56,790 nt of DNA. Origin: a virus. Lineage: Duplodnaviria > Heunggongvirae > Uroviricota > Caudoviricetes. The DNA lies in the IMG/VR virus record IMGVR_UViG_3300021400_000048, positions 1-56,790 of that record; one strand, 5' to 3'. The notes under the pieces were generated by a model. It worked only from the letters and a program-made list of their open reading frames with translations, had not been told where the DNA came from and did not search any database. Of the stretch, positions 1 through 11,469 are shown piece by piece. Both the position numbers and the translations under genes were made by a program. Position 1 is the stretch's first letter; the number at the start of each line of letters is the position of its first letter.

Positions 1-233
1 TCATCTAACGATAATGTTGATGGATAATCTTCAACCTGCTTCACTTCCCTCTTCGAGACGCACTGTTAAAGTAATCGAAGTCTTTGATTACACATCTACG
101 GAATACGTTCTCACGCAACCGCATCTATAATAATAGTATAGACTAATTTTACTTGCAACCTATTATTTAGTCATTTCCTCTATTACCACAGCTTCCCAAG
201 AATATTTTTATTCAATTTAGACCGTGTTTTGGT

Positions 234-318
234 TGGTTGCGGAGGTCAGGAGTCGAACCTGCTATCTCAAGGTTATGAGCCTTGAATGGTTTATAGATAT
301 CCGTGCCACTCCTCCGCA
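234..318 (-). tRNA. tRNA-Met(CAT), fMet-like 3' end, enlarged D region
   Basis: CAAGG-CTCATAA-CCTTG anticodon arm, TTCGACT T-loop, TGCGGAG/CTCCGCA acceptor, encoded CCA. Confidence 0.8.
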
Positions 319-329
319 ATATTAATAGA

Positions 330-417
330 AGTTCCAGCCTGACCCTACCAAGCCCCTCATATTTTTGAGTCTATAGCCTCTAAATATGCATGCCACAACT
401 TCCAGCACCTTGGAACT
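330..417 (-). ncRNA. Candidate small structured RNA
   Basis: Terminal stem AGTTCCA/TGGAACT, inner stem CATATTT/AAATATG, starts directly after a TTGTATAAT promoter (421-435). Confidence 0.4.
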
Positions 418-420
418 ATT

Positions 421-435
421 ATATTATACAATAAA
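421..435 (-). promoter_or_regulatory. Sigma70-like extended -10 promoter motif (TATTGTATAATAwwAT), repeated through the window
   Basis: Further copies at about 4551, 7601, 11001, 11157, 13021, 18741, 23296, 27760, 30997, 32001, 35670, 43167, 45961, 46055 (minus) and 46111 (plus, before the topoisomerase B gene), each at an operon start. Confidence 0.75.
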
Positions 436-708
436 AATTTTAAAATTATTTGAAAGTTTTTTGACTACAGGATAACTTGCAACCCGCCCACCATCCAGTG
501 CGATTTATTATATTCTCACTTATGAATACACTTTGCACAAACATTTGAAGGAAAATTTTTCCAAATAAATCGCAGTAGGCTTCCCTGTCACAGTAAACCT
601 CTTAATAGCCTGATCTTGAATTTATATAGCGAAACGCAGGGTTTTTTCGCTGGCCAGATTTTCTCAATTATGGATAGTTAGAAAATCTCGACCATATATT
701 AAATATAC

Positions 709-783
709 TGGTCCTCCCAGATTGAATTGAACAATCACTCTTGCCCTTATAAGGAGCCTGCTTTACCATTAAGCTACAGGAGG
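709..783 (-). tRNA. tRNA-Ile(TAT)
   Basis: Cloverleaf, loop CT-TAT-AA, CCA. Confidence 0.8.
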
Positions 784-785
784 AT

Positions 786-859
786 TGGTGGAGACAGCTG
801 GAATCGAACCAACATAGTTAGATGGTACCACTTCCTAACCTTTACCAAAATTCGTCCCC
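786..859 (-). ncRNA. tRNA-like RNA, reduced D-arm, 13-nt anticodon loop
   Basis: GGGGACG/TGTCTCC acceptor, TTCGATT T-loop, CCA; GTTAG-GAAGTGGTACCAT-CTAAC. Confidence 0.55.
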
Positions 860-863
860 ATAT

Positions 864-940
864 TGGTAGAAGCGGAAAGACTTGAACTTTCAACCTCTCG
901 GTTATCGGCCGAGTGCGCTAACCAGTTGTGCCACGCTTCC
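864..940 (-). tRNA. tRNA-Ile(GAT)
   Basis: Cloverleaf, loop CC-GAT-AA, CCA. Confidence 0.9.
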
Positions 941-1207
941 AGAGACCTCAGGCCCGAATGACACTGAAGTATGATCCTGCAGATTTAGCCTCATCTGCAA
1001 AAGCCTCAGTTCTTCTCAAACCTGAACACTGATAAAACGGTTGTATCGCTTAGTATGCCAAGTGCATCTGTCGATCAATTAACCAATATTTGATCCAAAC
1101 TAAGCTAGTCTGTTAGTCTCTTAACCACCCGGCACAGACAACTGGTAGCATTTCGTTTGCTCACGCCTATCTTTTTTGGTTAGAGGCATAAGAATTAGTC
1201 CTCTTAA

Positions 1208-1286
1208 TGGTGGATCCAAAGAGAATTGAACTCTTCTGATTTCCGCATTGCAGGTGCGGCGACCACCCCATGCAGTCCCTGAACCC
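1208..1286 (-). tRNA. tRNA-Ala(TGC)
   Basis: CCGCA-CCTGCAA-TGCGG, CCA. Confidence 0.85.
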
Positions 1287-1289
1287 AAA

Positions 1290-1510
1290 TTATAAATAGG
1301 GTTGCTTAAGGTGAACCCTCTAACGCCTCGTTTATGGCGACACAACCTATTAACCGAATACACCGTTTCCAGCCGTTTAATAGGACAAAATATTTTGACT
1401 TTTTAAAAATAGTACATACGATATTATAACCTTGCAGGCACAACCCTGCTAGCAAGACTTTCTCCTGGAGTTCCCCGGCTTTCTTAATCTTATTTTTGGG
1501 CATTTCAGCT
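1290..1510 (-). ncRNA. Candidate structured RNA
   Basis: Relatively GC-rich intergenic block with nested helices (CTTGC-TAGCAGG-GTTGTG-CCTGC-AAG). Confidence 0.3.
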
Positions 1511-1618
1511 TATTCAATATATTAAGTAGTCCACTTACTATTAATAATTATTCTTTTTAAAGTCGACATCCAAAGAAATTATTAATAACACTCAATTCAG
1601 TACCAGGTGGTGGAACAT

Positions 1619-1694
1619 TGGCGTGCTTAGAAAGATTCGAACTCTCGTCTGTTGGTTCGTAGCCAACTAGTTTCTCCAATTAGCCTATAAGCAC
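1619..1694 (-). tRNA. tRNA-Arg(ACG)
   Basis: GTTGG-CTACGAA-CCAAC, CCA. Confidence 0.9.
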
Positions 1695-1699
1695 AAAAT

Positions 1700-1875
1700 A
1701 ATCAGGTCTTTGGTGACTCTGCGAATTTCCACACCTAGTATGTTATCCAATTCCCTAACGCTATACTCGGGTTATCGACCTGAAGCTCCTTCGCTCTCTT
1801 TGTAGTTTATTCGAACACTATAACGATATCGATTTTATTTATTGTCTGAACAGCACGACTGTCTTTCTTTTTCGA
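1700..1875 (-). ncRNA. Candidate structured RNA
   Basis: CAGGTC/GACCTG closing stem, GGTG/CACC inner stem, AGACAG..GTCT-type hairpin, no ORF. Confidence 0.35.
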
Positions 1876-1899
1876 TAAATAGACATTTAATCCATATTA

Positions 1900-2115
1900 T
1901 TATAGCCTATCAGCAATAACTGCTAATATTACACCAATGATAATTAATAAAAGGCCTAAACCAATACTAAAAATTATTGGACTTAATACCCAAAACCAAT
2001 TCCAGTCAATAACTCCACATAATTTTAATACTACAAAAACAATTGTTAATATAGAGCCTAGTCCAAGACCTCCACTTCTTACTACTTTTGTTTCTTGTTT
2101 TGGTTCATTATACAT
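1900..2115 (-). CDS. Small two-TM membrane protein (holin-like possible)
   Basis: 71 aa, two hydrophobic segments, SD AAAGGA. Confidence 0.7.
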   Translation of the reverse strand: MYNEPKQETKVVRSGGLGLGSILTIVFVVLKLCGVIDWNWFWVLSPIIFSIGLGLLLIIIGVILAVIADRL

Positions 2116-2137
2116 ATTAATTTTTCCTTTCTTTTAA

Positions 2138-2223
2138 TGGTGGGCAGAGAAGGAGTTGCACCTCCGTTGTTTCTATGTGAGGGATTTACAGTCCCTTGCC
2201 CTCGCTGCTAGGCATACCTGCCC
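2138..2223 (-). tRNA. tRNA-Tyr(GTA)
   Basis: AGGGA-CTGTAAA-TCCCT, long variable arm, CCA. Confidence 0.9.
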
Positions 2224-2227
2224 AATT

Positions 2228-2302
2228 TGGAGCAAGTGGACGGGATCGAACCGACACTCCCAGCTTGGAGGGCTGGAGCACTAACCATTATACTACACCT
2301 GC
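2228..2302 (-). tRNA. tRNA-Gly(TCC)
   Basis: CCAGC-CCTCCAA-GCTGG, U73, CCA. Confidence 0.9.
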
Positions 2303-2310
2303 AAATATTT

Positions 2311-2375
2311 GGCCTAACTAATATGAATTTCTTAGCAGGAAAATGCCTTACGGCTAGAAATAAGTATAGGCTCTA
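2311..2375 (-). repeat. Bracket element C (short insert containing TCCTGCTA)
   Basis: TAGA-GCCTA-T-AC-TTATTTCT ... TCATATTA-GT-TAGGC-C. Confidence 0.8.
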
Positions 2376-2392
2376 TTTTATTTTTAATTTAA

Positions 2393-2505
2393 GGCTGAAC
2401 TTTTATTTTGGCGAGAATAGGATTTGAACCTATAACCTCTGGACTAGAATTCCAGTGCTCTACCAATTGAGCTATCCTGCTAAAAAGAAATAAGTATCAG
2501 CTCTA
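2393..2505 (-). tRNA. Bracket element B enclosing an atypical tRNA(TCT) (2409-2481) with shortened acceptor 3' strand
   Basis: TAGA-GCTGA-T-AC-TTATTTCT-TTTT|AGCAGGA...CTGGA-ATTCTAG-TCCAG...CCTAT-TCTCG-CCA|AAATAAAA-GT-TCAGC-C. Confidence 0.7.
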
Positions 2506-2523
2506 TTTTTATTTTTAATTTTT

Positions 2524-2642
2524 GGCTCAGCTAACATTACGGTGCTCTACCTCTGAGCTATATCCTAGGCACTGCTAGAATAGCAAGATTTGAACTTGCG
2601 ACCACCGGCTTACAAGGCAAATAGAAATAAGCATGAGCTCTA
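2524..2642 (-). tRNA. Circularly permuted tRNA-Thr(TGT) in bracket A (3' half 2576-2618, 5' half 2540-2567)
   Basis: Rejoined at 29/30 it gives a full cloverleaf: acceptor TAGGATA/TATTCTA, anticodon stem CCG|GC/GCCGG, loop CTTGTAA, T-arm GCAAG-TTCAAAT-CTTGC; 8-nt linker. Confidence 0.9.
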
Positions 2643-2644
2643 TC

Positions 2645-2736
2645 TGGCGGAGAGTGTAGGATTCGAACCTACGGTCCCCCTTACGGAGGACGACAGTTTA
2701 GCAAACTGCTGGGTTAAGCCACTCCCCCAACTCTCC
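2645..2736 (-). tRNA. tRNA-Ser(GCT)
   Basis: Loop TT-GCT-AA, long variable arm, G73, CCA. Confidence 0.9.
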
Positions 2737-2743
2737 GTATAAA

Positions 2744-2820
2744 TGGTGACCCCAGCGGGATTCGAACCCACAATCTCAGCTGTGAAGGAGCCGTGACTTA
2801 ACCAATTCGTCTATGAGGCC
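2744..2820 (-). tRNA. tRNA-Glu(TTC)
   Basis: CGGCT-CCTTCAC-AGCTG, CCA. Confidence 0.85.
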
Positions 2821-2825
2821 ATATA

Positions 2826-2903
2826 TGGCGGCCCAACTAGGACTTGAACCTAGGACCTACGGTTTAACAGACCGTTGCTACTAACCAACTGAGCTACTGG
2901 GCC
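2826..2903 (-). tRNA. tRNA-Asn(GTT)
   Basis: ACGGT-CTGTTAA-ACCGT, G73, CCA. Confidence 0.9.
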
Positions 2904-2912
2904 ATTAGCTCG

Positions 2913-4088
2913 CTATTCACAAGCTTTGAAGTTGTAAATAGGAGTTATTATATTAATTATTTCAATAGTATCACTGACTTTATCAATGATTTCTTGAGCA
3001 TTTTTATATACCATTGGTGCTTCATCAATAGTATCTTGGTCTGCAGTTGTAGTATAAATACCTTGCATTGCATTTTGGAAATCTTCTAATTGTAAATTTG
3101 CTCTTGCTTCACTTCTTGACATAATGCGTCCAGCACCATGTGGAGCAGAATAATTCCAATCTTCATTTCCTTTTCCAATACCAATTATACTACCATCTCG
3201 CATATTTAAAGGTATAATTAATTTTTGTCCTTTATAGGCAGAAATTGCACCTTTACGAACTATATTATCATCACCAATATAATTATGAATAGATTCAAAA
3301 ATATTAATTGGTCTTATATTTAAGAATTTTAATATTTTTTCTAACATTAATCTTCTATTTTCTTTTGCAAAAACTTGACAAATTCTCATATCATGAAGAT
3401 ATTGTTCTCTTAATTCACCTTCTAAAAAACATAAATCTTTTGGAATTGAATAATCTTCAAATTGCTTATGTAAATCTTTTAATGCATCAGAAATTTCTGC
3501 TTGGCGACCTTGTGCTTTTAATTTAGCAATTAGCTCAACACTTTTTTCCTTAAAGAAATCATTATGACACATTTTAACTGCTTTATCTTGATAAATATCA
3601 GCAACTTGCTTTCCTAAATTTCTTGAGCCTGAATGAATTACTAAATATTTATTATCATCAGCATCTTTATCAATTTCAATAAAATGGTTTCCGCCGCCTA
3701 ATGAACAAATACTTAATGCTAAATAATCTTTATTTCTTAATTCATTATAGCAATATAATTTAGTAATGTCAAAATCTTCAACAATATAATCATTTGCATT
3801 CATTCCGCTTGGAATTTTTGTTTTGATAAAATTATCAACAGCTTCTAAATTAATATCAACTTTACCAAGTTCTGCAACAATTACACCGCAACCAATATCT
3901 ACACCAACAATATTTGGAATTACTTTATCACCTAAGTTCGCAGTAAAACCAATTACACATCCTGCACCAGCATGAACATCTGGCATAATTCTTACCTTAG
4001 CATTTCTAAATGGCGCAAGATTTAATAAAGTATAAATTTGATTTGTTGCTTTTGGATCAATATTTTCTGTGAATATTTTTAAATTCAT
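2913..4088 (-). CDS. rtcB: RtcB family RNA ligase
   Basis: MPDVHAG, GVDIGCG, SLGGGNHFIE, IHSGSR, HNYI, SAPHGAGR, DEAPMVYK motifs; ATG at 4088 after AGGTG (ORF track starts at 4097). Confidence 0.95.
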   Translation of the reverse strand: MNLKIFTENIDPKATNQIYTLLNLAPFRNAKVRIMPDVHAGAGCVIGFTANLGDKVIPNIVGVDIGCGVIVAELGKVDINLEAVDNFIKTKIPSGMNANDYIVEDFDITKLYCYNELRNKDYLALSICSLGGGNHFIEIDKDADDNKYLVIHSGSRNLGKQVADIYQDKAVKMCHNDFFKEKSVELIAKLKAQGRQAEISDALKDLHKQFEDYSIPKDLCFLEGELREQYLHDMRICQVFAKENRRLMLEKILKFLNIRPINIFESIHNYIGDDNIVRKGAISAYKGQKLIIPLNMRDGSIIGIGKGNEDWNYSAPHGAGRIMSRSEARANLQLEDFQNAMQGIYTTTADQDTIDEAPMVYKNAQEIIDKVSDTIEIINIITPIYNFKACE

Positions 4089-4106
4089 TCTAATCACCTA
4101 ATTTCT

Positions 4107-4287
4107 GACATGACTAATATAACGCCGGCTTTACCAATTTGCCTATTTCCCCAAATTGGCCGAACTTCTTATAAAATAACCCAAATATTTGTAAAAAGAA
4201 ATAAGTATCGGCTCTATCTGGTGGGGAAAGCTGGAATCGAACCAGCATACAGCGGCTCCCAAAGCAAAGAAATAAGTACAGGTTCTA
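4107..4287 (-). tRNA. Circularly permuted tRNA-Pro(TGG) (3' half 4219-4265, 5' half 4123-4152)
   Basis: Rejoined at 29/30: acceptor GGGGAAA/TTTCCCC, stem GCG|GC/GCCGC, loop TTTGGGA, T-arm GCTGG-TTCGATT-CCAGC, A73-CCA; outer bracket ACCTG-T-AC / GT-CATGT. Confidence 0.9.
4158..4216 (-). repeat. Bracket element D nested in the linker of the permuted tRNA-Pro
   Basis: TAGA-GCCGA-T-AC-TTATTTCT ... TATAAGAA-GT-TCGGC-C. Confidence 0.8.
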
Positions 4288-4291
4288 TTTT

Positions 4292-4365
4292 TGGCAGGCA
4301 CTGAAAGAATCGAACTCTCATCAGGTGTTTTGGAGACACTTATTCTACCGTTAAACTAAGCACCT
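4292..4365 (-). tRNA. tRNA-Trp(CCA)
   Basis: Loop CT-CCA-AA, G73, CCA. Confidence 0.85.
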
Positions 4366-4379
4366 ACTATACTATTATA

Positions 4380-4454
4380 TGGTCCCAGTTGCTTGACTCG
4401 AACAAGCATTGGTCGGGTATGAACCGACTTTCCTAGCCGTTAAAAGAAACTGGG
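4380..4454 (-). tRNA. tRNA(CAT), Met or Ile2
   Basis: GTCGG-TTCATAC-CCGAC, CCA. Confidence 0.8.
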
Positions 4455-4459
4455 ATAAA

Positions 4460-4534
4460 TGGTGCCGATTGACAGATTCGAACTGCCATTAGAAGTTTAC
4501 AAGACTACTGTACTAGCCATTATACGAAACCGGC
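4460..4534 (-). tRNA. tRNA-Thr(TGT), linear
   Basis: GCCGGTT/AATCGGC acceptor, loop CTTGTAA, one T-T mismatch in the anticodon stem. Confidence 0.85.
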
Positions 4535-4740
4535 AATGTTATTTACTACATTATATTATACAATAAAATATAGTAAATTTAGTAGAATTATTTTATTTCA
4601 TTTAAGTTTAAATTATAATCAATAAATAATTCTGCAACAGTGTTTAAAAAGCTTTTAACTCTTCTTAACATTTTATTATTTCCCTTCTAGGTTTTAACGT
4701 CTTTTATCTTGACAATTTTACTAGAAGAAGATGAAGCCAT

Positions 4741-4816
4741 TGGGGTGTCCTGCCAGAATTGAACTGACAACTTCAGGGCCACAACCTAACGTGATAACCA
4801 TTTCACCAAGAACGCC
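4741..4816 (-). tRNA. tRNA-His(GTG)
   Basis: Loop TT-GTG-GC, G-1/C73, CCA. Confidence 0.85.
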
Positions 4817-4824
4817 ATATATAT

Positions 4825-4898
4825 TGGAGCATCGAGTCAGGATCGAACTGACGGTCAGGGTGTTGCAGACCCTTGCCTTACCGCTTGGCTACCGATGC
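4825..4898 (-). tRNA. tRNA-Cys(GCA)
   Basis: AGGGT-CTGCAAC-ACCCT, U73, CCA. Confidence 0.9.
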
Positions 4899-4904
4899 AA
4901 GTAT

Positions 4905-4981
4905 TGGTACCTTACATAGGAGTAGAACCTATACTGTAATGGGTTTGAGCCATCTTTCTCTACCAGTTGGAATAGTAAGGC
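4905..4981 (-). tRNA. tRNA(CAA), nominal Leu, short variable arm
   Basis: GATGG-CTCAAAC-CCATT, CCA. Confidence 0.7.
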
Positions 4982-5010
4982 ATGTAAAGCTAAGTTTAAA
5001 AACTTAACTT

Positions 5011-5430
5011 TTAATTATTTTCTCTGGCAATCTTACTTACTAAAGCCATATCAACTTGTCCATTATAGTTTGTTTTGAAAAACTTCATAATAGATGGGAT
5101 TGACTTATCAGGCAAATCATTGATTAATTCTTTTATTTTATCTTCTGATAATTGTTTTGGTAAGTATTCTTTAATTAATTCTTTTTGTTTTGTTAATTCG
5201 TCAGCTTTTTCAATTCTATTTACTTTTACATTAGCCTCAATTTCTTCATCTAATTGTTTATTTAATTTTCTTATAATATTATAAACTTCAGAATCCCCTA
5301 ATGTATCTGTTCTTAATTCAATAGTTTTATTTTTTAAACTATTATAAAGTAAACCAAGAATATTCTTCGCTAATTCATTTTTTTCTTTTCTGGCATTGAT
5401 AAAATCTGTATAAATCTTATTATATAGCAT
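5011..5430 (-). CDS. GatB/YqeY domain protein
   Basis: 139 aa helical; ARKEKN, K..REIKEYLPKQLSED, GQVDMALVSK pattern of YqeY. Confidence 0.85.
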   Translation of the reverse strand: MLYNKIYTDFINARKEKNELAKNILGLLYNSLKNKTIELRTDTLGDSEVYNIIRKLNKQLDEEIEANVKVNRIEKADELTKQKELIKEYLPKQLSEDKIKELINDLPDKSIPSIMKFFKTNYNGQVDMALVSKIARENN

Positions 5431-5453
5431 ATTTATATTCCTTTCTTGTCTTT

Positions 5454-5538
5454 TGGAAGAGTGATTAGGATTTGCACCTAAACTTGCTGTGTCTGTAATT
5501 ACCCCTGGGAGCTATGCTACTAGTTACATTATCACTCT
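5454..5538 (-). ncRNA. tRNA-like RNA with expanded non-canonical anticodon arm
   Basis: AGAGTGA/TCACTCT acceptor, TTAGG-TGCAAAT-CCTAA, U73-CCA; GCT[22 nt]AGC in place of the anticodon arm. Confidence 0.55.
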
Positions 5539-5543
5539 ATTAA

Positions 5544-5620
5544 TGGTGCGCCCAGCAGGACTCGAACCTGCAAAATTCAGTTTCTAAGACTGGCACCTAT
5601 ACCAGTTCGGTTATGAGCGC
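5544..5620 (-). tRNA. tRNA(TAG), nominal Leu, short variable arm
   Basis: CCAGT-CTTAGAA-ACTGA, CCA. Confidence 0.8.
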
Positions 5621-5623
5621 ATA

Positions 5624-5700
5624 TGGTCAGGGTAGTAGGATTCGAACCTACAACTTCTAAGTTCCAGGCCTAGTGGTCTACCAAATTGACGTATACCCTG
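5624..5700 (-). tRNA. tRNA-Pro(TGG), linear
   Basis: C1-G72, A73, loop CC-TGG-AA. Confidence 0.85.
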
Positions 5701-5706
5701 ATTTAT

Positions 5707-5796
5707 TGGCGAAGAGTGTAGGATTTGAACCCACGGTGGCTTTCACCACGTCTGATTTCAAGTCAGGTGCAATAAACCAAACTCTGCCAACTCTCC
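5707..5796 (-). tRNA. tRNA-Ser(TGA)
   Basis: Loop CT-TGA-AA, long variable arm, G73. Confidence 0.9.
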
Positions 5797-5807
5797 AAAA
5801 TTATTCA

Positions 5808-5981
5808 CTAATTTAATTCTTTTTTAGTTTCTGATTTTTCTTTTTGTCTTAAGTGCTTTCTATGAAGTCTACCTTTAACAAAATCCTTATAGACTTTGCA
5901 ATGTCTTCTAACTCGTTTATTTTTTCTTTGACAAGTTAAATAATCACACCAACAACAACAATTAATTATTTCTTTCTTCAT
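5808..5981 (-). CDS. Small basic Cys-rich hypothetical protein (57 aa)
   Basis: SD AAGGA; MKKEIINCCCWCDYLTCQRKNKRVRRH... Confidence 0.45.
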   Translation of the reverse strand: MKKEIINCCCWCDYLTCQRKNKRVRRHCKVYKDFVKGRLHRKHLRQKEKSETKKELN

Positions 5982-5998
5982 AAATAATTCCTTTTTAA

Positions 5999-6074
5999 TG
6001 GCGGTCCCCCTTGGAATTGCACCAAGTTCTGCGGATTTTCAGTCCGCTGCATAGACTACCTCTGCCAGAGAACC
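5999..6074 (-). tRNA. tRNA-Phe(GAA)
   Basis: GCGGA-CTGAAAA-TCCGC, CCA. Confidence 0.85.
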
Positions 6075-6082
6075 ATATATTT

Positions 6083-6152
6083 GGCCTAGCTTCACACCCA
6101 TTGATTAAAAGTCAATTGCTCTATTGAGCTCTAGAAATAAGCATAGGCTCTA
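6083..6152 (-). repeat. Bracket element E enclosing D- and anticodon arms of a tRNA-Lys(TTT)
   Basis: TAGA-GCCTA-T-GC-TTATTTCT-AGAGCTCAATAGAGC-A-ATTGA-CTTTTAA-TCAAT...GC-TAGGC-C. Confidence 0.8.
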
Positions 6153-6162
6153 ATTATTTATT

Positions 6163-6249
6163 TGGTGGCCCGGGTGGGATTTGAACCCACACGCCTTTAC
6201 GGGCAAGGGATTTTAAGTCCCTCGTGTCTACCTATTCCGCCACCGGGCC
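6163..6249 (-). tRNA. tRNA-Leu(TAA)
   Basis: Anticodon TAA, long variable arm, A73-CCA. Confidence 0.9.
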
Positions 6250-6253
6250 ATAT

Positions 6254-6334
6254 TGGTGCAGGAAGGCAATGACTCCAGACTTGCATTTCTCATTTCTGAG
6301 CGTTCTTTTTATCGAGCAGTTGAACTACTTCCCT
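6254..6334 (-). ncRNA. Degenerate tRNA-like RNA with GAAA-tetraloop arm
   Basis: AGGGAAG/CTTCCTG acceptor-like stem, ends ACCA, CTCA-GAAA-TGAG in place of the anticodon arm. Confidence 0.4.
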
Positions 6335-6487
6335 ACGATTTAGAACTAGCTACAAATCGAGAAAACTTGCTATTTTTAAGTTGATTTATTTGCCACCTAT
6401 CCATAATGTGGTCGTGGAGATACTTATATACCGCACTCTCTGGGTCCTTAGGGCGGTCCAACTGGTTTATTTAGTTTTCCTTCTAAT

Positions 6488-6564
6488 TGGTGCTCTGAGC
6501 ATGGATCGAACCTACGACATCTTGCTTGTAGGACAAGTGCTCATCCCAACTGAGCTATCAGAGC
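6488..6564 (-). tRNA. tRNA-Val(TAC)
   Basis: Loop CC-TAC-AA, CCA. Confidence 0.9.
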
Positions 6565-6568
6565 ATAT

Positions 6569-6643
6569 TGGAGCAGATAAACAGGATCGAACTGTCATTT
6601 CAACCATGGCAAGGTCGCGTAATAGCCATTATACCATATCTGC
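6569..6643 (-). tRNA. tRNA-Gly(GCC)
   Basis: CGACC-TTGCCAT-GGTTG, U73. Confidence 0.9.
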
Positions 6644-6651
6644 AAATTTAT

Positions 6652-6726
6652 TGGCATCCCCAGAAGGATTCGAACCTTCACAAATGGCTTAGAAGGCCAT
6701 TGGTCTTTCCGTTAGCCTATGAGGAT
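6652..6726 (-). tRNA. tRNA-Arg(TCT)
   Basis: ATGGC-CTTCTAA-GCCAT, G73. Confidence 0.85.
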
Positions 6727-6729
6727 ATT

Positions 6730-6805
6730 TGGTGCGTCTTCAGAGATTCGAACTCTGGACCAACAGATTAAGAGTCTGCTACTCTACCAGCTGAGTTAAA
6801 GACGC
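6730..6805 (-). tRNA. tRNA-Lys(CTT)
   Basis: GCAGA-CTCTTAA-TCTGT. Confidence 0.9.
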
Positions 6806-6813
6806 GCAACTAT

Positions 6814-6889
6814 TGGTGCGCTTGAACAGGCTCGAACTGTCGACCCACGGATTAAAAGTCCGCTGCTCTACCTACTGAGCTACAAGCGC
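6814..6889 (-). tRNA. tRNA-Lys(TTT)
   Basis: GCGGA-CTTTTAA-TCCGT. Confidence 0.9.
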
Positions 6890-6960
6890 ATAAAGTTTTC
6901 GATATTTAGTTGTTTGTTTAGATTTTCGCTTCATACGCTTAATCTCCTTTAATTTATTTT

Positions 6961-7035
6961 TGGCAGGGCCGTGCTGATTTGAACAGCAATTTACTGGGTC
7001 AAAGCCAGTTGAACTAACCATTGTTCTACAGCCCT
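6961..7035 (-). tRNA. tRNA-Gln(TTG)
   Basis: ACTGG-CTTTGAC-CCAGT, G73-CCA. Confidence 0.85.
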
Positions 7036-7129
7036 AAATAATTTTACAATATTATTATACTATATATTTTTTAATTTGTAAATAGTTTTTAAAACGAAAA
7101 CGTTTTCTATTTAGTAAATTCAAAACAGC

Positions 7130-7157
7130 GAAAAAAAATGGATCCTTACGGACCCAA
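7130..7157 (-). terminator. Intrinsic terminator
   Basis: GGGTCC-GTAA-GGATCC followed by a T-tract. Confidence 0.7.
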
Positions 7158-7205
7158 AGATATATATGAACATCTATTCCAAAAATATACTAAGACTTGA
7201 TATTC

Positions 7206-7397
7206 TTAACTTGCTAACAAACTTCTATTCATATTAGCTGTTTTTATATTTTTAGAATTTAAGATGGACAATATGATTGGGTCTCCTTTTAAAAGACGGC
7301 ATGTAGGCGCAACTAAAAGAGTCTTAATAGATACTAAACTATCAAAACCTGGTTCTCTATGATTATTATATTGTTTACAAATCATATTAAATAGCAT
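7206..7397 (-). CDS. Hypothetical small protein (63 aa)
   Basis: SD AAGGAG before ATG (MLFNMIC...), followed by a terminator. Confidence 0.45.
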   Translation of the reverse strand: MLFNMICKQYNNHREPGFDSLVSIKTLLVAPTCRLLKGDPIILSILNSKNIKTANMNRSLLAS

Positions 7398-7467
7398 AAC
7401 CTTGCTCCTTTTAAAAATTTTTATAAAATACAAATTAGTTTATTAACTAATTAGTTAAATGCTCTTT

Positions 7468-7487
7468 ACATTTTAATTTAGCTAATA
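7468..7487 (-). promoter_or_regulatory. Second upstream motif class (GCTAAATTAA-[A]ATGT/TAGT)
   Basis: Near-identical copies at 7468-7487, 18210-18228 and 19025-19039, each upstream of a transcription unit. Confidence 0.5.
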
Positions 7488-7622
7488 TTTTTTTAATATT
7501 TTATTATTTTAATAAATAACTTTTTATGCTCAGAAAAGTTATTGAAAAACTGTTTATACGTAATGTATTAAATTAACAAATAGGTAGTATATTTACCTAT
7601 ATATTATTATACAATAAATTTT

Positions 7623-8621
7623 TTAAAATTTTAAACCAATTTTAAAATAAATTTCAGAAATTTTTTTATCTGCTCTTATTTTAGCTTTTTCAGCGCCGGT
7701 CATTAAAATTTTATTTAATTTATTAATATCAGTTTTTAACTCATTTACTTTATTTTGAATTTTTAAACATTCTGCACAAACAATATCTGCAACAGCTTTT
7801 TTAAAAATTCCATAATCTTTTTCATCTTTAAATATTTCTACAGCATCTTCTATAGAAATATCTTTTAAGCCAGCATAGATAGAAAGTAAATTACTAATTC
7901 CAGGCTTATGCTCAGGATCATAATAAATTTTACTTTCTGCATCTGTAACTGCTTTCATAATTTTTTTACGAGTTTTTTCAATATCTTCTAAAAGATAAAT
8001 AGTTCCTTTATCAGATTCAGATTTACTCATCTTTTTTGTTGGGTCAGATAAAGACATAATTTTAGCACCAGTTTTTGAAATAATAGGTTTTGGTAATTTA
8101 AAAGTTTCACCATAAGTTCTATTAAATCTATCAGCAAGTATTTTAGTTAATTCAATATGTTGGACTTGATCAATACCAACAGGAACATAATCGGCATCAT
8201 ATAATAATATATCTGCAGCCATTAAACTTGGATACATAAAAATTCCTGTTGGAATGCCTTCATGAGCAGTTATACTAGCTGCCTTTAGCTGATATTGATG
8301 CATTTCATAAAAATGTCTCATAACAGAATTACAAGTTAATATCCACTCTAATTGATTATGAGCAGGAACATCTGACTGTTTAAATAATACTGTTTTTTTA
8401 TCATCTAACCCAGCAGCTAAATATGTTGCAATTAAATTTAGTGAATTTTCTTTTAATTCTTCTGGCTTAATTGGAAGTGTTAATGCATGCAAATCAGCAA
8501 TAAATATATATAAATTATATTCATCTTGATATTTTACAAGCGGTTTAATTGCTCCAAGCAATGTGCCAAGAGTTGGTATACCTGTTGGTTTTATACCAGA
8601 TAACATTATAGCTTTATTCAT
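7623..8621 (-). CDS. trpS: Tryptophanyl-tRNA synthetase
   Basis: SGIKPTG, HIGH-like TLG, YPSLMAADILLY, VPVGIDQVQHIELT, KMSKS. Confidence 0.95.
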   Translation of the reverse strand: MNKAIMLSGIKPTGIPTLGTLLGAIKPLVKYQDEYNLYIFIADLHALTLPIKPEELKENSLNLIATYLAAGLDDKKTVLFKQSDVPAHNQLEWILTCNSVMRHFYEMHQYQLKAASITAHEGIPTGIFMYPSLMAADILLYDADYVPVGIDQVQHIELTKILADRFNRTYGETFKLPKPIISKTGAKIMSLSDPTKKMSKSESDKGTIYLLEDIEKTRKKIMKAVTDAESKIYYDPEHKPGISNLLSIYAGLKDISIEDAVEIFKDEKDYGIFKKAVADIVCAECLKIQNKVNELKTDINKLNKILMTGAEKAKIRADKKISEIYFKIGLKF

Positions 8622-8622
8622 A

Positions 8623-10995
8623 TTAAGCCTCTAAAATATTTCTAGTTAATACTTCTGGTAATAATTCTTCAATATGACTAACTGGAATAATTTTTAAATT
8701 ATTTTTAATTTCATCTGGCAAATCTTCAATATCTCGCTCATTTTCTTTTGGAATATAAATTGTATCAAGACCTGCTGTATAAGCCGCAATTGATTTTTCT
8801 TTTAGACCACCAATTGGAAGAATACGGCCTCTTAATGAAATTTCACCAGTCATACCAACATTATGTTTTACTGGAGTATCTGACATAGCACTTAGCATTG
8901 CAGTAACAAATGTTACACCAGCAGATGGTCCATCTTTAGGTACTGCTCCTTCTGGACAGTGAATATGTAAGTCAGAGTGGAATTGTGAATTAGTCATATT
9001 AAATAACATTTTATGAGATTTAATCCAGTTATAAGCAGCTTCTGCAGATTCTTTCATTACTTCACCAAGATTACCTGTAATTGTATAACTACCATTACTA
9101 TCATCTTTACCTTGAGTTGCTACTGCTTCAATTTGTAAAACATCTCCACCAAAATCAGTATAAGCTAAACCATTAACAACGCCAACTAAATCTTCTTTTT
9201 CAACGATATCATAGTCATACTTTCTCTTGCCAAGCATTTCTTTTAATAAAGCAGTATCAACAACAACTTTATCTAAATGCTCAGACATAATCTTTTTAAT
9301 AGATCTTCTAACTACTGTATCAATACAACGTTCTAATTGACGAGCACCAGCTTCACGTGTATAATATCTAATTAATTCATCTAAAGCTTCATCAGTTATT
9401 TTAAATTTTTCAGGTTCAAGACCATTTTTTTCTAACGATTTAGCAATAGTATGTTCCCTTGCAATATTAAATTTTTCAAGTCTTGTATAGCTTGACAATT
9501 CAATAATTTCCATTCTATCTCTAAGAGGTGCTGGAATTGAATATAAATCATTAGCTGTACAAATAAACATAACTTCTGATAAATCAAATTCTAATTCAAG
9601 ATAATGATCCATAAAATGTTCATTTTGTGCAGGGTCTAAAACTTCAAGTAATGATGCGCTTGGGTCACCTTTATAATCAGCACCAAGTTTATCTATTTCA
9701 TCTAATAGGAATACAGGATTTTTAGAGCCAGCTTCTTTAATACCATTAATAATTCTACCTGGCAAAGCTCCTAAATAAGTTCTTCTATGACCTCTAATTT
9801 CAGCTTCATCTTTTACACCGCCAAGTGATTGCTTAACAAACTTTCTTCCAAGTGCTTCAGCTATTGATTTTGCAATAGTTGTTTTACCAGTTCCTGGAGG
9901 GCCAGCTAAGCAAAGAATAGTTTGTGGTGTTTTTTGAGAATATAATTTAACTGCAAGATAATCTAAAATTCTTTCTTTAGGCTTATCAAGACCAGAATGT
10001 GTTTCATCAAGTTTTGCTTTAACAGCATCAATATCTGTATTATCTTCAGTTCTTACATTCCAAGGAAGTGCAAGTAAAGTATCAAGATAGTTTCTAATCA
10101 TTGAAGATTCGGGTGAAGCGCCATTTGTTGATTGATAGCGCTTTAACTCTCTTAATGCTTGGTTTTCTGCAGCCTCATGCATACCAATAGATTTAATTTT
10201 TTCCCTTAGACTATCTATATCAGCAGTAGCTTTATCAACATCACCAAGGTCCTCTTGAATAGCTCTTAATTTTTTTCGTAAATAGTATTCTTTTTGCTCT
10301 TTCATTATATCAGCTTGTACAGAGCTTTCAATTTGTCTATCAATTTCTGCAAGCTTTTCAACCTGTAGCATTAAAGAAGCAACTTTATGAAGTCTACTAT
10401 TAAACTCAGTATCAGCTAAAAAATCATAGATATTAACTTTAACTACTGACAAATTTGCAACAATTGTATCACAAAGTAAGGACTTCTTATCTTCTGCATC
10501 TAAGTATTGCTCAACAGCAAAAATATCTGAAAAAACTTGGTCTTTATATTTTCTTGCTTTTTTACAAATTACATTAAAAAGAGCAGCTGATTCATCTGTA
10601 AGATCTTCAGTATCAGTATAAACTTGAAGGTCTGCACATTGATAGTTAAGAACTTCAGCCCCAATTGAATTATTTAATTCAAAAGTATCATCCATCATAC
10701 TTACTAAATAAGCTCTTTTTTCTAAAACAATGTTAAATGATACACTTTCATCTGAAATAAAAGTAATATTTTGAAAAGTGCCAAATAGCCCAGCTGGCTT
10801 TACTGTTAGAGTTTCTTTATCTCTAAAAAATACACTTACTTGATTCTTAAAATAATTTTGTGATACTTTACATGTATCTATAAAAAATTTACTCGCAGTT
10901 ACCAAATTAATAGTTGTTCCAGGCAAAACTGGTTCTTCATCAAATACTATTATTGGTGCTTGTTTAATTTCTTGATAAGTCATATAATACCTCAT
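8623..10995 (-). CDS. lon: Lon ATP-dependent protease
   Basis: GPPGTGKT, LLDEIDK, PKDGPSAG catalytic Ser, ILPIGGLKEK. Confidence 0.95.
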   Translation of the reverse strand: MRYYMTYQEIKQAPIIVFDEEPVLPGTTINLVTASKFFIDTCKVSQNYFKNQVSVFFRDKETLTVKPAGLFGTFQNITFISDESVSFNIVLEKRAYLVSMMDDTFELNNSIGAEVLNYQCADLQVYTDTEDLTDESAALFNVICKKARKYKDQVFSDIFAVEQYLDAEDKKSLLCDTIVANLSVVKVNIYDFLADTEFNSRLHKVASLMLQVEKLAEIDRQIESSVQADIMKEQKEYYLRKKLRAIQEDLGDVDKATADIDSLREKIKSIGMHEAAENQALRELKRYQSTNGASPESSMIRNYLDTLLALPWNVRTEDNTDIDAVKAKLDETHSGLDKPKERILDYLAVKLYSQKTPQTILCLAGPPGTGKTTIAKSIAEALGRKFVKQSLGGVKDEAEIRGHRRTYLGALPGRIINGIKEAGSKNPVFLLDEIDKLGADYKGDPSASLLEVLDPAQNEHFMDHYLELEFDLSEVMFICTANDLYSIPAPLRDRMEIIELSSYTRLEKFNIAREHTIAKSLEKNGLEPEKFKITDEALDELIRYYTREAGARQLERCIDTVVRRSIKKIMSEHLDKVVVDTALLKEMLGKRKYDYDIVEKEDLVGVVNGLAYTDFGGDVLQIEAVATQGKDDSNGSYTITGNLGEVMKESAEAAYNWIKSHKMLFNMTNSQFHSDLHIHCPEGAVPKDGPSAGVTFVTAMLSAMSDTPVKHNVGMTGEISLRGRILPIGGLKEKSIAAYTAGLDTIYIPKENERDIEDLPDEIKNNLKIIPVSHIEELLPEVLTRNILEA

Positions 10996-11042
10996 TTACT
11001 ATATTATTATACAATATTTTTATAATATTTTTAATTAAAAAT

Positions 11043-11071
11043 ACCAATTTAATATCAAATTAAACTGGTAT
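11043..11071 (-). terminator. Terminator after the suppressor tRNA
   Basis: ATACCAGTTTA/TAAATTGGTAT inverted repeat with T-tract. Confidence 0.55.
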
Positions 11072-11080
11072 TTATTTACT

Positions 11081-11155
11081 TGGCGGAGGCTGAAGGATTC
11101 GAACCCTCGATGATGGTTTTGAAGACCATAGGCATAACCACTTACCGAAGCCTCC
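11081..11155 (-). tRNA. Opal suppressor tRNA-Trp(TCA)
   Basis: GGAGGCT/AGCCTCC acceptor, ATGGT-CT-TCA-AA-ACCAT, short variable arm (not Sec), G73-CCA; has its own promoter and terminator. Confidence 0.92.
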
Positions 11156-11309
11156 ATAATATTATACAATATAATCTAGATAATTGCCGTCAATATATTT
11201 CAAGTAGGAGGAAATAAATATGAAATATGGATATTAGGAGGAATTTGCTGAATGTTTTGTTTATTTGTCATTCATTCAACGACAATTTGTTTCAAAAATA
11301 ATGCTCTTT

Positions 11310-11462
11310 ATTAATTTCACGGCTCTGGGTAGAAACTAACTAAATCCCCTTGTCATCTTTCACCGACATGGCGGTAGCATTTACCTTACGCGTCAACGCT
11401 ACAAAGAGGTCTGGTCTATCTGGCAGGAAGAGCATCCTTGCCACACGTGAGACTGCCCGTGT
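11310..11462 (-). ncRNA. Candidate structured RNA upstream of the suppressor tRNA
   Basis: CACGG(GC)/(GC)CGTG closing stem; GGCAAGGA..TCCTGCC and GTAGC..GCTAC helices; GC-rich in an AT-rich context; strand uncertain. Confidence 0.4.
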
Positions 11463-11469
11463 ATATATT

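What the first reader, a model, noticed from the sequence alone, without database searches (positions are those of the whole stretch)
2311..4287. Candidate phage tRNA back-splicing system: circularly permuted tRNAs + covarying RNA brackets + RtcB
Seen: two tRNA genes have the 3' half upstream of the 5' half (Thr-UGU 2524-2642; Pro-UGG 4107-4287). Both are broken at the same place (between nt 29 and 30), both are enclosed by the same leader/trailer motif, and they sit on either side of rtcB; the Pro trailer ends about 20 nt before the rtcB ATG. Known: permuted tRNAs occur in Cyanidioschyzon, some green algae, a nucleomorph and Thermofilum, where the BHB-recognising endonuclease acts and a circular intermediate forms; RtcB joins 2',3'-cyclic-P/3'-P ends to 5'-OH ends. 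I know of no bacterial or phage case. Inference: cleavage at both bracket junctions, RtcB ligation to a circle, then RNase P and 3' trimming of the linker gives a mature tRNA. The junction is not a BHB, and the cutter (phage or host nuclease, or the RNA itself) is unidentified.
Basis: partly seen in the sequence, partly recalled or inferred. Interest (0 to 1): 0.97.

Follow-up and report, generated by a model that had tools for sequence, protein, structure and literature searches.

The report
Back-to-front tRNAs on RNA handle
Two tRNA genes of a 223-kb rumen phage really are written back to front inside a conserved RNA "bracket", but that bracket also frames hairpins, tRNA pieces and whole tRNAs and travels with one uncharacterised protein gene, so they are more likely tRNA look-alikes on a protein-binding handle than genes re-joined by RtcB.

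Summary
Thr(UGU) at 2524-2642 and Pro(UGG) at 4107-4287, both on the minus strand, have the 3' half before the 5' half. Both break at 29/30, and the joined halves fold as canonical cloverleafs. Each lies in a two-part bracket, UAGA-[8-bp helix with a bulged U]-UUAUUUCU ... A-[helix]-C, whose helix covaries. Two independent metagenome assemblies show the same order.

The RtcB back-splicing reading is only partly supported.
- In 76 non-redundant units the bracket also encloses plain hairpins, D-hairpin plus anticodon arm, T-arm minihelices, whole tRNA-like genes and permuted tRNAs.
- One to four brackets precede a ~650-aa gene (helical domain plus TerD fold), even in phages whose copy of that protein is only 21-26% identical.
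- Four complete relatives with permuted cargo lack rtcB.
- Break position varies from 28/29 to 31/32.
- About half of the permuted cargos cannot give a U33 loop.
- In every case that could be checked, the cargo anticodon duplicates a normal tRNA gene.

Best reading (0.5): a handle-plus-cargo tRNA-mimic RNA built on the plan of Ro60/Y RNA. True cut-and-ligate maturation remains possible (0.25). There are no RNA data. Other agents of this scan noted the same RNA/TerD-protein pair in at least ten other genomes.

The parts
2311..2375 (-). Bracket unit. The 37-nt cargo is a D-like hairpin (GCC-GUAA-GGC) plus an anticodon-arm-like hairpin with loop CUGCUAA (Ser-GCU type).
2393..2505 (-). Bracket unit enclosing a whole tRNA-Arg(UCU)-like gene (2409-2481). 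Its acceptor stem has two A.C mismatches and it has no proper N73-CCA.
   Evidence: mismatches read from the sequence
2524..2642 (-). Bracket unit enclosing the permuted tRNA-Thr(UGU). Order: 5' element 2623-2642, leader 2619-2622, 3' half 2575-2618, linker 2568-2574, 5' half 2540-2567, trailer 2532-2539, 3' helix strand 2524-2531.
   Evidence: Weak Rfam YrlA hit at 2538-2607 (33.8 bits).
2913..4088 (-). rtcB (391 aa). Its Shine-Dalgarno AGGUGA follows the outer Pro bracket directly.
4107..4287 (-). Outer bracket unit enclosing the permuted tRNA-Pro(UGG). Order: 5' element 4268-4287, 3' half plus CCA 4219-4265, 5' half 4123-4152, trailer 4115-4122, 3' strand 4107-4114 (one mismatch).
4158..4216 (-). 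Inner bracket unit nested in the Pro acceptor linker. The 31-nt cargo is a hairpin with a UUUGGG loop.
6083..6152 (-). Bracket unit between tRNA-Leu(UAA) and tRNA-Phe. The cargo is a D-like hairpin plus an anticodon arm with loop CUUUUAA (Lys-UUU type).

Best explanation
The bracket is the conserved handle of a modular family of phage small RNAs, and the two back-to-front tRNAs are cargo domains on that handle.

The handle is an 8-bp helix with a bulged U, closed on one side by the invariant single strand UUAUUUCU and on the other by ...UA, with AGA before it and C after it. I infer that it is bound by the ~650-aa protein encoded behind further copies of the handle. That protein has a helical N-terminal domain and a TerD-fold C-terminal domain (G000 93946-95898, outside the window).

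The cargo presents a tRNA shape or a part of one. Here that means a complete L-shape with a closed acceptor end and an anticodon loop held on a nicked anticodon stem. I infer that it attracts tRNA-binding proteins such as RNase P, modification enzymes, synthetases, host anticodon nucleases or repair ligases.

The plan is that of Ro60 with its YrlA Y RNAs, which in Salmonella also lie directly before rtcB. On this reading the 29/30 break is simply where the handle joins the tRNA body, and no re-joining is required.

Shown: the RNA architecture, its covariation, the range of cargos and the gene linkage. Inferred: protein binding and the biological role.
For: 1. The range of cargo in 76 non-redundant closed brackets includes items that can never become tRNAs. 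These are plain hairpins, a D-hairpin plus anticodon arm, and a T-arm plus closed acceptor hairpin.
2. AGA, the bulged U (70/76), UUAUUUCU (66/76) and the C after the helix (73/76) are nearly invariant while the helix covaries. This is the pattern expected of a recognition site.
3. Gene linkage is consistent. A bracket lies 138-345 nt before the TerD-fold gene in G000 and in 15 relatives' loci. In L150-L155, whose proteins are only 21-26% identical, one to four units of the form GCUA-helix-UUAYUUCW-cargo-UA-helix fill the leader. These are six loci with five distinct leaders. Their helices include G.U pairs, which points to pairing in RNA.
4. In every case that could be checked, the bracketed anticodon duplicates a normal tRNA gene of the same genome. 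This holds in G000, G001 and G003, and for two of three in G002.
5. The cargos are imperfect as tRNAs.
   - Thr and Arg lack the encoded CCA that all 26 normal tRNAs here have.
   - Arg has two acceptor mismatches.
   - Several relatives close the acceptor with 3-nt loops.
   - About half of the permuted cargos have an open loop without U33.
6. The orthologous Pro elements of G000 and G005 differ in break position and loop. An exact nick is therefore not conserved.
7. M. smegmatis YrlA is a permuted tRNA-like RNA that is cut by RNase P and receives CCA (PMC4201824). A 7-bp acceptor and CCA therefore do not prove a real tRNA.
8. The longest structural alignments of the helical domain are to Ro60: 9l5y_B with Z 5.4 over 210 residues, and 2nvo_A with Z 5.0 over 232 residues. 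This is a weak hint only.
Against: - There is no binding, transcript or processing datum at all. No RNA run holds the locus.
- The protein shows no TROVE signal by sequence. Its Ro60 resemblance lies in the noise range for helical repeats.
- Eight permuted cargos carry a perfect nicked anticodon stem and a canonical 7-nt loop with U33 and a purine at 37, for Thr, Lys, Asn, Arg and Pro. That is more than a mimic obviously needs.
- A strain variant changes the Thr anticodon UGU to GGU, still Thr, while all stems stay intact. This is what a decoding tRNA would do.
- Several cargos encode A73-CCA, and some have the bacterial Pro identity set.
- Synteny among related phages could explain part of the gene linkage.
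Confidence: 0.5

Rival explanations
1. These are true permuted pre-tRNAs. In the cleanly nicked subset, which includes the window's Thr and Pro, the leader and trailer flaps are removed at the 3-way junction. The nick in the anticodon stem is then sealed by RtcB where present, or otherwise by phage Rnl-type ligases or a host ligase. RNase P and 3' trimming open the acceptor linker, giving a working tRNA.
For: - The joined halves are canonical cloverleafs.
- There is an exact nick with no missing or extra stem nucleotide in eight independent cargos, with loops for Thr, Lys, Asn, Arg, Pro and GCU/GUU.
- CCA is encoded in the Pro cargo.
- A strain variant carries the synonymous anticodon change UGU to GGU, and its substitutions fall only in loops, linker and flaps.
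- rtcB lies directly downstream of the Pro element in both G000 and G005.
- ATP-dependent RNA ligase families are present in G000, G002, G003 and G004, so ligase capacity is not limited to RtcB.
Against: - No cutter is known. There is no EndA, no BHB and no Rfam ribozyme.
- The flaps vary in length (2-5 and 7-10 nt) and in sequence even between strains, so no fixed cut site exists.
- Break position varies from 28/29 to 31/32.
- Half of the permuted cargos, including the G005 orthologue, cannot give U33.
- Some acceptors are closed by 3-nt loops.
- The cargos are redundant with normal tRNA genes.
- By textbook identity rules (my own knowledge, not tested here), the Thr cargo has U1-A72 and A2-U71, atypical for ThrRS, and the Pro cargo has G1-C72, atypical for bacterial ProRS. 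The Thr cargo also has no CCA.
- Permuted cargo occurs in four genomes without rtcB.
- The same bracket frames non-tRNA cargo.
Confidence: 0.25
2. The bracket is a general RNA processing or stabilising cassette, possibly a new small self-cleaving ribozyme or the site of a host or phage endonuclease. It releases or protects whatever small RNA lies inside it. The tRNA-derived cargos are only some of many passengers.
For: - The cargos are very diverse, including conserved non-tRNA structured inserts of 46-76 nt.
- Units occur in tandem arrays just after host-type TGTATAAT promoters and between tRNAs.
- About 16 invariant unpaired nucleotides around one helix is the scale of small ribozymes.
- Different helix sequences within one genome would prevent mispairing within one transcript.
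Against: - Nothing matches a known ribozyme class at E <= 1.
- One site per unit cannot make both cuts that a permuted tRNA would need.
- The deep, specific linkage to one protein gene is not explained by a generic cassette.
Confidence: 0.15
3. The elements are decaying tRNA gene fragments, or an assembly or recombination artefact, with no function.
For: They duplicate normal tRNA genes, and some have imperfect stems.
Against: - The same order appears in independent bovine and goat assemblies.
- The architecture recurs in dozens of IMG/VR phages.
- Stems are kept intact by selection between strains.
- Covariation is strong.
Confidence: 0.02

Closest known systems
YrlA-type bacterial and phage Y RNAs with Ro60/Rsr (Rfam RF02553; Chen et al. 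2014, PMC4201824), including the Salmonella rsr-yrlBA-rtcBA operon
   Same: - A small RNA whose ends pair into a protein-binding stem.
- An effector domain that is a circularly permuted tRNA look-alike (T arm, closed acceptor stem, D arm).
- RNA genes placed beside the partner protein gene and directly before rtcB.
[quoted passage not shown]
   Different: - There is no TROVE gene in this complete genome.
- The YrlA model scores 33.8 bits against a threshold of 69.
- The handle motif is UUAYUUCW, not the Ro-binding GNCGAAN0-1G.
- The linked protein has a TerD fold instead of vWA.
- Many cargos keep a complete anticodon loop on a nicked stem, which YrlA lacks.
Circularly permuted tRNA genes of Cyanidioschyzon merolae, some green algae and Thermofilum (Soma 2014, PMC3978253)
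   Same: - The 3' half lies upstream of the 5' half with a short acceptor linker.
- The joined product is a canonical cloverleaf.
- An RtcB-class ligase would be the expected sealing enzyme.
   Different: - There is no bulge-helix-bulge, because the two ends meet at one nick rather than four base pairs apart.
- No splicing endonuclease is encoded.
- The break lies in the anticodon stem at 28/29 to 31/32.
- The genes are redundant with normal ones.
- The flanking motif also frames non-tRNA cargo.
The bracket RNA plus helical/TerD protein pair noted elsewhere in this scan (e.g. e1-5340294, e1-3748123, e1-5169151). Not found in Rfam 15 or in the papers searched.
   Same: - A covarying short helix followed by a conserved single strand.
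- One to five tandem copies in the leader of a 600-700-aa TerD-fold protein gene.
- Some copies carry tRNA-like cargo.
   Different: - Here the cargo includes permuted tRNAs with intact canonical anticodon loops and an exact nick.
- One unit is nested inside another.
- One unit serves as the leader of rtcB.
Permuted (two-piece) tmRNA genes
   Same: - The acceptor 3' strand with CCA is encoded upstream of the 5' strand.
- The intervening segment is excised, and the two pieces stay paired without ligation.
   Different: - There is no tag reading frame and no pseudoknots.
- The Rfam permuted-tmRNA model scores only 20 bits at 4144-4246.

Membership tests
Circularly permuted tRNA genes (BHB/EndA/RtcB pathway) | The 3' half is encoded upstream of the 5' half, and the joined sequence folds as a canonical tRNA. 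| tested here: met
Circularly permuted tRNA genes (BHB/EndA/RtcB pathway) | A bulge-helix-bulge formed by the leader and trailer at the junction. | tested here: not met
   Read from the sequence. The two predicted ends abut at one nick in the anticodon stem. Flaps of 2-5 and 7-10 nt vary in sequence between strains. There is no 4-bp helix flanked by two 3-nt bulges.
Circularly permuted tRNA genes (BHB/EndA/RtcB pathway) | A splicing endonuclease is available. | tested here: not met
   PF01974 is absent from the complete phage genome while the controls are positive. The host genome is unknown and was not tested.
Circularly permuted tRNA genes (BHB/EndA/RtcB pathway) | A circular intermediate or junction-spanning mature RNA. 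| not testable with these tools
   No RNA run holds the locus.
YrlA Y RNA / Ro60 RNP | A match to Rfam RF02553 at its gathering score. | tested here: not met
   33.8 bits against 69, covering only the tRNA-like core.
YrlA Y RNA / Ro60 RNP | A TROVE/Ro60 gene in the genome. | tested here: not met
   PF05731 is absent from the complete G000. Structural likeness of the linked protein's helical domain to Ro60 is weak (Z 5.0-5.4), which is inconclusive.
YrlA Y RNA / Ro60 RNP | A permuted tRNA-like domain with closed acceptor stem, attached to a terminal stem formed by the RNA's two ends. | tested here: met
Bracket RNA with helical/TerD protein (undescribed pair) | A covarying helix followed by the invariant UUAYUUCW, with cargo between the two helix strands. 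| tested here: met
Bracket RNA with helical/TerD protein (undescribed pair) | Copies in the leader of the TerD-fold protein gene. | tested here: met
   G000 96134 and 96052 lie before the gene at 95898-93946. The same holds in 15 relatives' loci and in 6 distant loci (5 distinct leaders). TerD fold.
Bracket RNA with helical/TerD protein (undescribed pair) | Physical binding of the protein to the RNA. | not testable with these tools
   No tool here models protein-RNA complexes.
Known small self-cleaving ribozymes (hammerhead, twister, twister-sister, pistol, hatchet, HDV-like, hairpin) | A match to the family covariance model. | tested here: not met
   No such family reaches E <= 1 in 1-12000.
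RtcB RNA ligase | RtcB domain over the curated threshold. | tested here: met
   PF01139, 191.9 bits.

The most novel reading that the evidence does not exclude
The cleanly nicked cargos (Thr and Pro here; Lys, Asn, Arg and Thr in relatives) are genuine permuted tRNA genes of a bacterial virus. The conserved bracket, alone or with its TerD-fold partner protein, directs removal of both flaps. RtcB or an Rnl-type ligase then seals the anticodon stem. This would be a back-splicing route to tRNA in the bacterial world that owes nothing to the archaeal/eukaryal BHB endonuclease.
Probability: 0.22. Interest if true: 0.95.

Novelty: new variant of a known kind. Interest (0 to 1): 0.72.

Why it matters
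If the best reading holds, large gut and rumen phages carry a widespread, uncatalogued RNA-protein system built like Ro60/Y RNA but from an unrelated handle and apparently different protein parts. Its RNAs display whole tRNA shapes, or single tRNA arms, for specific anticodons. That would bear on how phages deal with tRNA-targeting host defences and with RNA repair, and it gives a function to test for a protein family of more than 1,600 clusters.

If the minority reading holds, it would be the first permuted tRNA genes and the first tRNA back-splicing outside eukaryotes and archaea.

One small-RNA sequencing or Northern experiment on an expressing sample separates the two readings.

Practically, standard tRNA finders miss these elements. 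The window's bracketed "tRNA-Arg(UCU)" is probably not an ordinary tRNA.

Tried and rejected
- **RtcB-anchored loci.** The 80 IMG/VR loci with 55-61% identical RtcB have no tRNA array or bracket beside rtcB, so they gave no comparison.
- **GenBank phages.** They share only rtcB and tRNA pieces with the window.
- **Brute-force trimming.** Circularising inserts and running ARAGORN was too permissive to place junctions. I replaced it with structural parsing. That heuristic misplaces some breaks (L083 8395, L084 4918, L107 3001), which I corrected by eye.
- **RNA evidence.** No RNA holder is listed. The two metatranscriptome runs of the source sample gave only generic tRNA fragments.
- **Protein families.** Pfam, PHROGs and PDB sequence searches of the TerD-fold protein found no named family.
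- **Ro60 likeness.** The structural similarity of its helical domain to Ro60 is weak and inconclusive.
- **Promoter and terminator scans** were uninformative.
- **Absence of rtcB in G005** is a contig-end artefact. The gene starts 31 codons before the contig end.
- **PF09414 hits.** The weak hits in 424-452-aa frames of G000, G001 and G004 are probably ATP-dependent DNA ligases. The G000 one scores better as DNA_ligase_A_M.

Readings considered and dropped:
- Integron attC sites. GCCTAAC/GTTAGGC resembles the R boxes, but many helices do not fit, all units are co-oriented with the tRNAs, the helices contain G.U pairs, and the tRNA lies inside the element.
- ToxI-type antitoxin repeats. The units of an array differ in helix and cargo.
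- A phage polymerase promoter. This would not explain covariation with a distant partner strand.
- HDV-like or theta ribozymes. Nothing conserved follows the 3' strand.
- A permuted group I intron. The conserved part is far too small.
Full report
**What is in the window.** Bases 1-12000 hold a minus-strand array of 27 ARAGORN tRNA genes. The array also contains rtcB (2913-4088, Pfam RtcB 3e-56), a YqeY-like gene and a class I aminoacyl-tRNA synthetase gene. The window is the first 56.8 kb of a complete 223,464-bp phage genome with direct terminal repeats. Earlier notes of this scan describe the phage as a TGA-recoded rumen phage.

The coordinates of every piece are listed under the observation check and under parts. 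In short:
- The Thr(UGU) element runs: bracket, leader AUUU, nt 30-73, a 7-nt linker, nt 1-29, trailer UAAUGUUA, bracket.
- The Pro(UGG) element runs: bracket, leader UU, nt 30-73 plus CCA, a complete nested bracket, nt 1-29, trailer UUAUAUUA, bracket.
- The joined halves are called tRNA-Thr(tgt) and tRNA-Pro(tgg) with canonical arms.
- The outer Pro bracket ends 18 nt before the rtcB ATG.

**The bracket is a real RNA structure.** The 21-nt motif occurs six times in the window against 0.11 expected. The whole genome holds nine copies. An exact-pattern scan of IMG/VR returned 45 stretches, many from phages of 85-237 kb.

Listing the contexts showed a second, downstream half of the motif. The consensus is UAGA-[R C N N N (U) R C U]-UAUUUCU-cargo-(U/C)[A G Y N' N' N' G Y]-C.
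- All variable helix positions change together.
- 48 of 56 non-redundant 5' elements find an exact 7-nt complement within 280 nt. The figure is 3% with another unit's helix and 1.3% with shuffled helices.
- On a 34-unit alignment every cell pairs. There are 33 double-sided changes against 8.0 +/- 2.2 in shuffles. That set was chosen with closure as a criterion, so one search is the cleaner control.
- G.U pairs occur in L097 7667 and in the distant family members, and all units share the orientation of the tRNA genes. Both facts place the pairing in RNA.
- No Rfam 15 family other than tRNA matches. There is one weak YrlA hit on the Thr core (33.8 bits; threshold 69) and one weak permuted-tmRNA hit on the Pro core.

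**It is not an artefact.** Contigs of a bovine run and a goat run, from different studies, cover 2407-2723 and 4067-4286 in the same order. The strain differences inside the Thr element fall only in the leader, the trailer, the acceptor linker, the D loop, T-loop position 57 and anticodon position 34 (UGU to GGU). No stem is touched, and the bracket helix and UUAUUUCU are unchanged.

**What the bracket encloses.** A relaxed scan with a closure test gave 76 non-redundant units. AGA, the bulged U (70/76), UUAUUUCU (66/76) and the C after the helix (73/76) are nearly invariant. The cargos fall into classes:
- A: plain hairpins, often with a UUUGGG loop.
- B: a D-like hairpin plus a canonical anticodon arm. 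The window has 6152 (Lys-UUU loop) and 2375 (Ser-GCU loop). Relatives have Thr-UGU and Cys-GCA loops.
- C: a T arm plus a closed acceptor hairpin.
- D: whole tRNA-like genes. The window has Arg(UCU) at 2505.
- E: permuted tRNAs.
- Conserved non-tRNA inserts of 46-76 nt.

Class E divides in two.
- Eight cargos have a perfectly nicked anticodon stem and a canonical loop. They are Thr and Pro in the window, Lys in L093, Asn in L086, Thr in L107, Arg in L084, and GCU in L083 against GUU in its orthologue L087. Their breaks lie at 28/29 or 29/30.
- About as many have a complete stem with the loop opened at 31/32 and no U33. Their loops read GCUGGGR, NUUCCA, AGGGCAA and UAGGGAA. Several of these close the acceptor with only three nucleotides.
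- The G005 orthologue of the window's Pro element sits in the same place, between tRNA-Trp and rtcB, with the same nested inner bracket. It belongs to the second kind.

**A linked protein gene.** In several relatives a hairpin bracket behind a TGTATAAT promoter is followed by one large ORF and then by bracketed permuted tRNAs.
- That ORF has a 49%-identical homologue in G000. Two brackets and the same promoter type precede it.
- Wherever the gene's upstream region is available, a bracket lies 138-345 nt before the start codon. This holds in 15 relatives' loci. In L084 four brackets follow the gene instead.
- The protein has no Pfam, PHROG or PDB sequence match.
- Its AlphaFold model (pLDDT 82) is a helical domain of about 420 residues followed by a TerD-fold beta sandwich. 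The matches are 2qz7_B at Z 14.6 and AFDB "TerD family protein" at E 8e-25.
- The family has 1,663 clusters at 50% identity.
- Five distant members, 21-26% identical over the helical domain, were looked up in six loci, L152 and L153 being one phage. All carry one to four units of the form GCUA-[7-bp covarying helix]-UUAYUUCW-cargo-UA-[helix] in their leaders.
- The linkage therefore outlasts most of the protein's sequence similarity.
- The longest structural alignments of the helical domain are to Ro60: phage phiLo 9l5y_B at Z 5.4 over 210 residues, and D. radiodurans 2nvo_A at Z 5.0 over 232 residues. These values lie within the noise expected for helical repeats.
- No TROVE domain is detectable in the genome.

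**Is RtcB the partner?**
- G000 has one rtcB.
- Pfam RtcB is absent from ten relatives' records.
- For G005 this is a contig-end artefact, because the contig stops 31 codons into rtcB, directly after the Pro-type bracket.
- For G001-G004, which are 95-100% complete and each carry brackets, three of them with permuted cargo, the absence stands.
- ATP-dependent RNA ligase families occur in G000, G002, G003 and G004. The gene beside the TerD-fold gene in G000 is better described as an ATP-dependent DNA ligase.
- Ligase capacity is thus common in the clade, but RtcB is not tied to the bracket.
- No splicing endonuclease domain is present.

**Are the cargos needed as tRNAs?**
- Every bracketed anticodon in G000 (Thr-UGU, Pro-UGG, Arg-UCU, Lys-UUU, Ser-GCU) also has a normal tRNA gene. 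The same holds in G001 and G003, and for two of three in the part of G002 that I read.
- All 26 normal tRNAs of the window encode N73-CCA. The bracketed Thr and Arg do not.
- The bracketed Arg has two A.C mismatches in its acceptor stem.
- By textbook identity rules (my own knowledge, not tested here), the permuted Thr has U1-A72 and A2-U71, atypical for ThrRS, and the permuted Pro has G1-C72 where the normal phage tRNA-Pro has C1-G72.
- The permuted genes are no closer in sequence to their normal isoacceptors than to other tRNAs.

**Reading.** One explanation covers the widest set of facts. The bracket is the handle of a modular RNA family partnered with the TerD-fold protein, and the permuted tRNAs are tRNA-shaped cargo domains. 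The facts it covers are:
- non-tRNA and partial-tRNA cargos;
- an invariant single strand beside a freely covarying helix;
- the deep gene linkage;
- redundancy with normal tRNA genes, and imperfect identity features;
- break position that drifts between orthologues;
- indifference to rtcB.

This is the plan of Ro60 with YrlA. In that system the tRNA mimic is also circularly permuted. In M. smegmatis it is also cut by RNase P and given CCA (PMC4201824). In Salmonella it also lies directly before rtcB. Membership in that family fails on every sequence test, so I file this as a variant of the plan and not as a member.

The minority reading remains that the exactly nicked subset is trimmed and sealed into working tRNAs. 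The canonical loops, the exact nicks and the synonymous UGU-to-GGU change are not required by a simple mimic.

Nothing here shows transcription, binding, cleavage or ligation.

**Relation to earlier notes of this scan.** After I had reached the protein linkage, look-ups showed that other agents had reported the same RNA/TerD-protein pair in at least ten other genomes and read it as Ro60/Y-RNA-like. Other back-to-front tRNAs had been judged YrlA-type mimics. These are unchecked AI notes and I do not count them as independent evidence. My own tests agree with them on the RNA family and on the linkage. I could not confirm a Ro60 fold.

Noticed in passing
window 2141-2223 (-): Rfam tRNA hit of 43.9 bits, 83 nt and probably class II, that ARAGORN did not call. 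Two weaker tRNA-like hits lie at 789-859 (25.1 bits) and 238-318 (tRNA-Sec model, 27.5 bits).
   Followed up: no
window 11081-11155 (-): tRNA with anticodon UCA, which ARAGORN calls SeC. It is an ordinary-sized suppressor that fits the TGA-as-Trp recoding reported for this phage by earlier notes.
   Followed up: no
G000 96134-95990 (outside the window; L132): Two hairpin brackets lie behind a TGTATAAT promoter. A long hairpin ending in a U-rich run follows, just before the TerD-fold gene. It may be an attenuator or a terminator that separates the small RNAs from the mRNA.
   Followed up: partly
G000 92461-93435 and about 89555-90211 (outside the window): An ATP-dependent DNA ligase gene lies directly downstream of the TerD-fold gene. 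A 782-aa ORF with an Rnl1-type RNA ligase domain (PF09511, 1.7e-38) lies about 3 kb further on. Together they form a nucleic-acid repair neighbourhood. This adjacency is not conserved in G001-G003.
   Followed up: partly
L083 8395 versus L087 10312: Orthologous permuted cargos with a 33-nt acceptor linker differ in the middle anticodon base, GCU against GUU. That would switch Ser to Asn on an unchanged class I body.
   Followed up: no
L083 9188, L087 10475, L086 3024, L097 7667: In the Gly-like permuted cargos the 3' bracket strand GCUUGGUC resembles the anticodon-stem strand GCUGG. The 5' stem strand CCAGC could therefore pair with either, which suggests a possible conformational switch.
   Followed up: no
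L095 11143, L103 9960, L086 10210, L103 1559: Conserved non-tRNA cargos of 73-76 nt with their own long hairpins recur in bracket arrays of several phages. Their nature is unknown.
   Followed up: no
window 2486-2505 and relatives: Units within one genome use different helix sequences. Eight of the nine in G000 differ in at least one helix position, as if mispairing between neighbouring units were selected against.
   Followed up: partly
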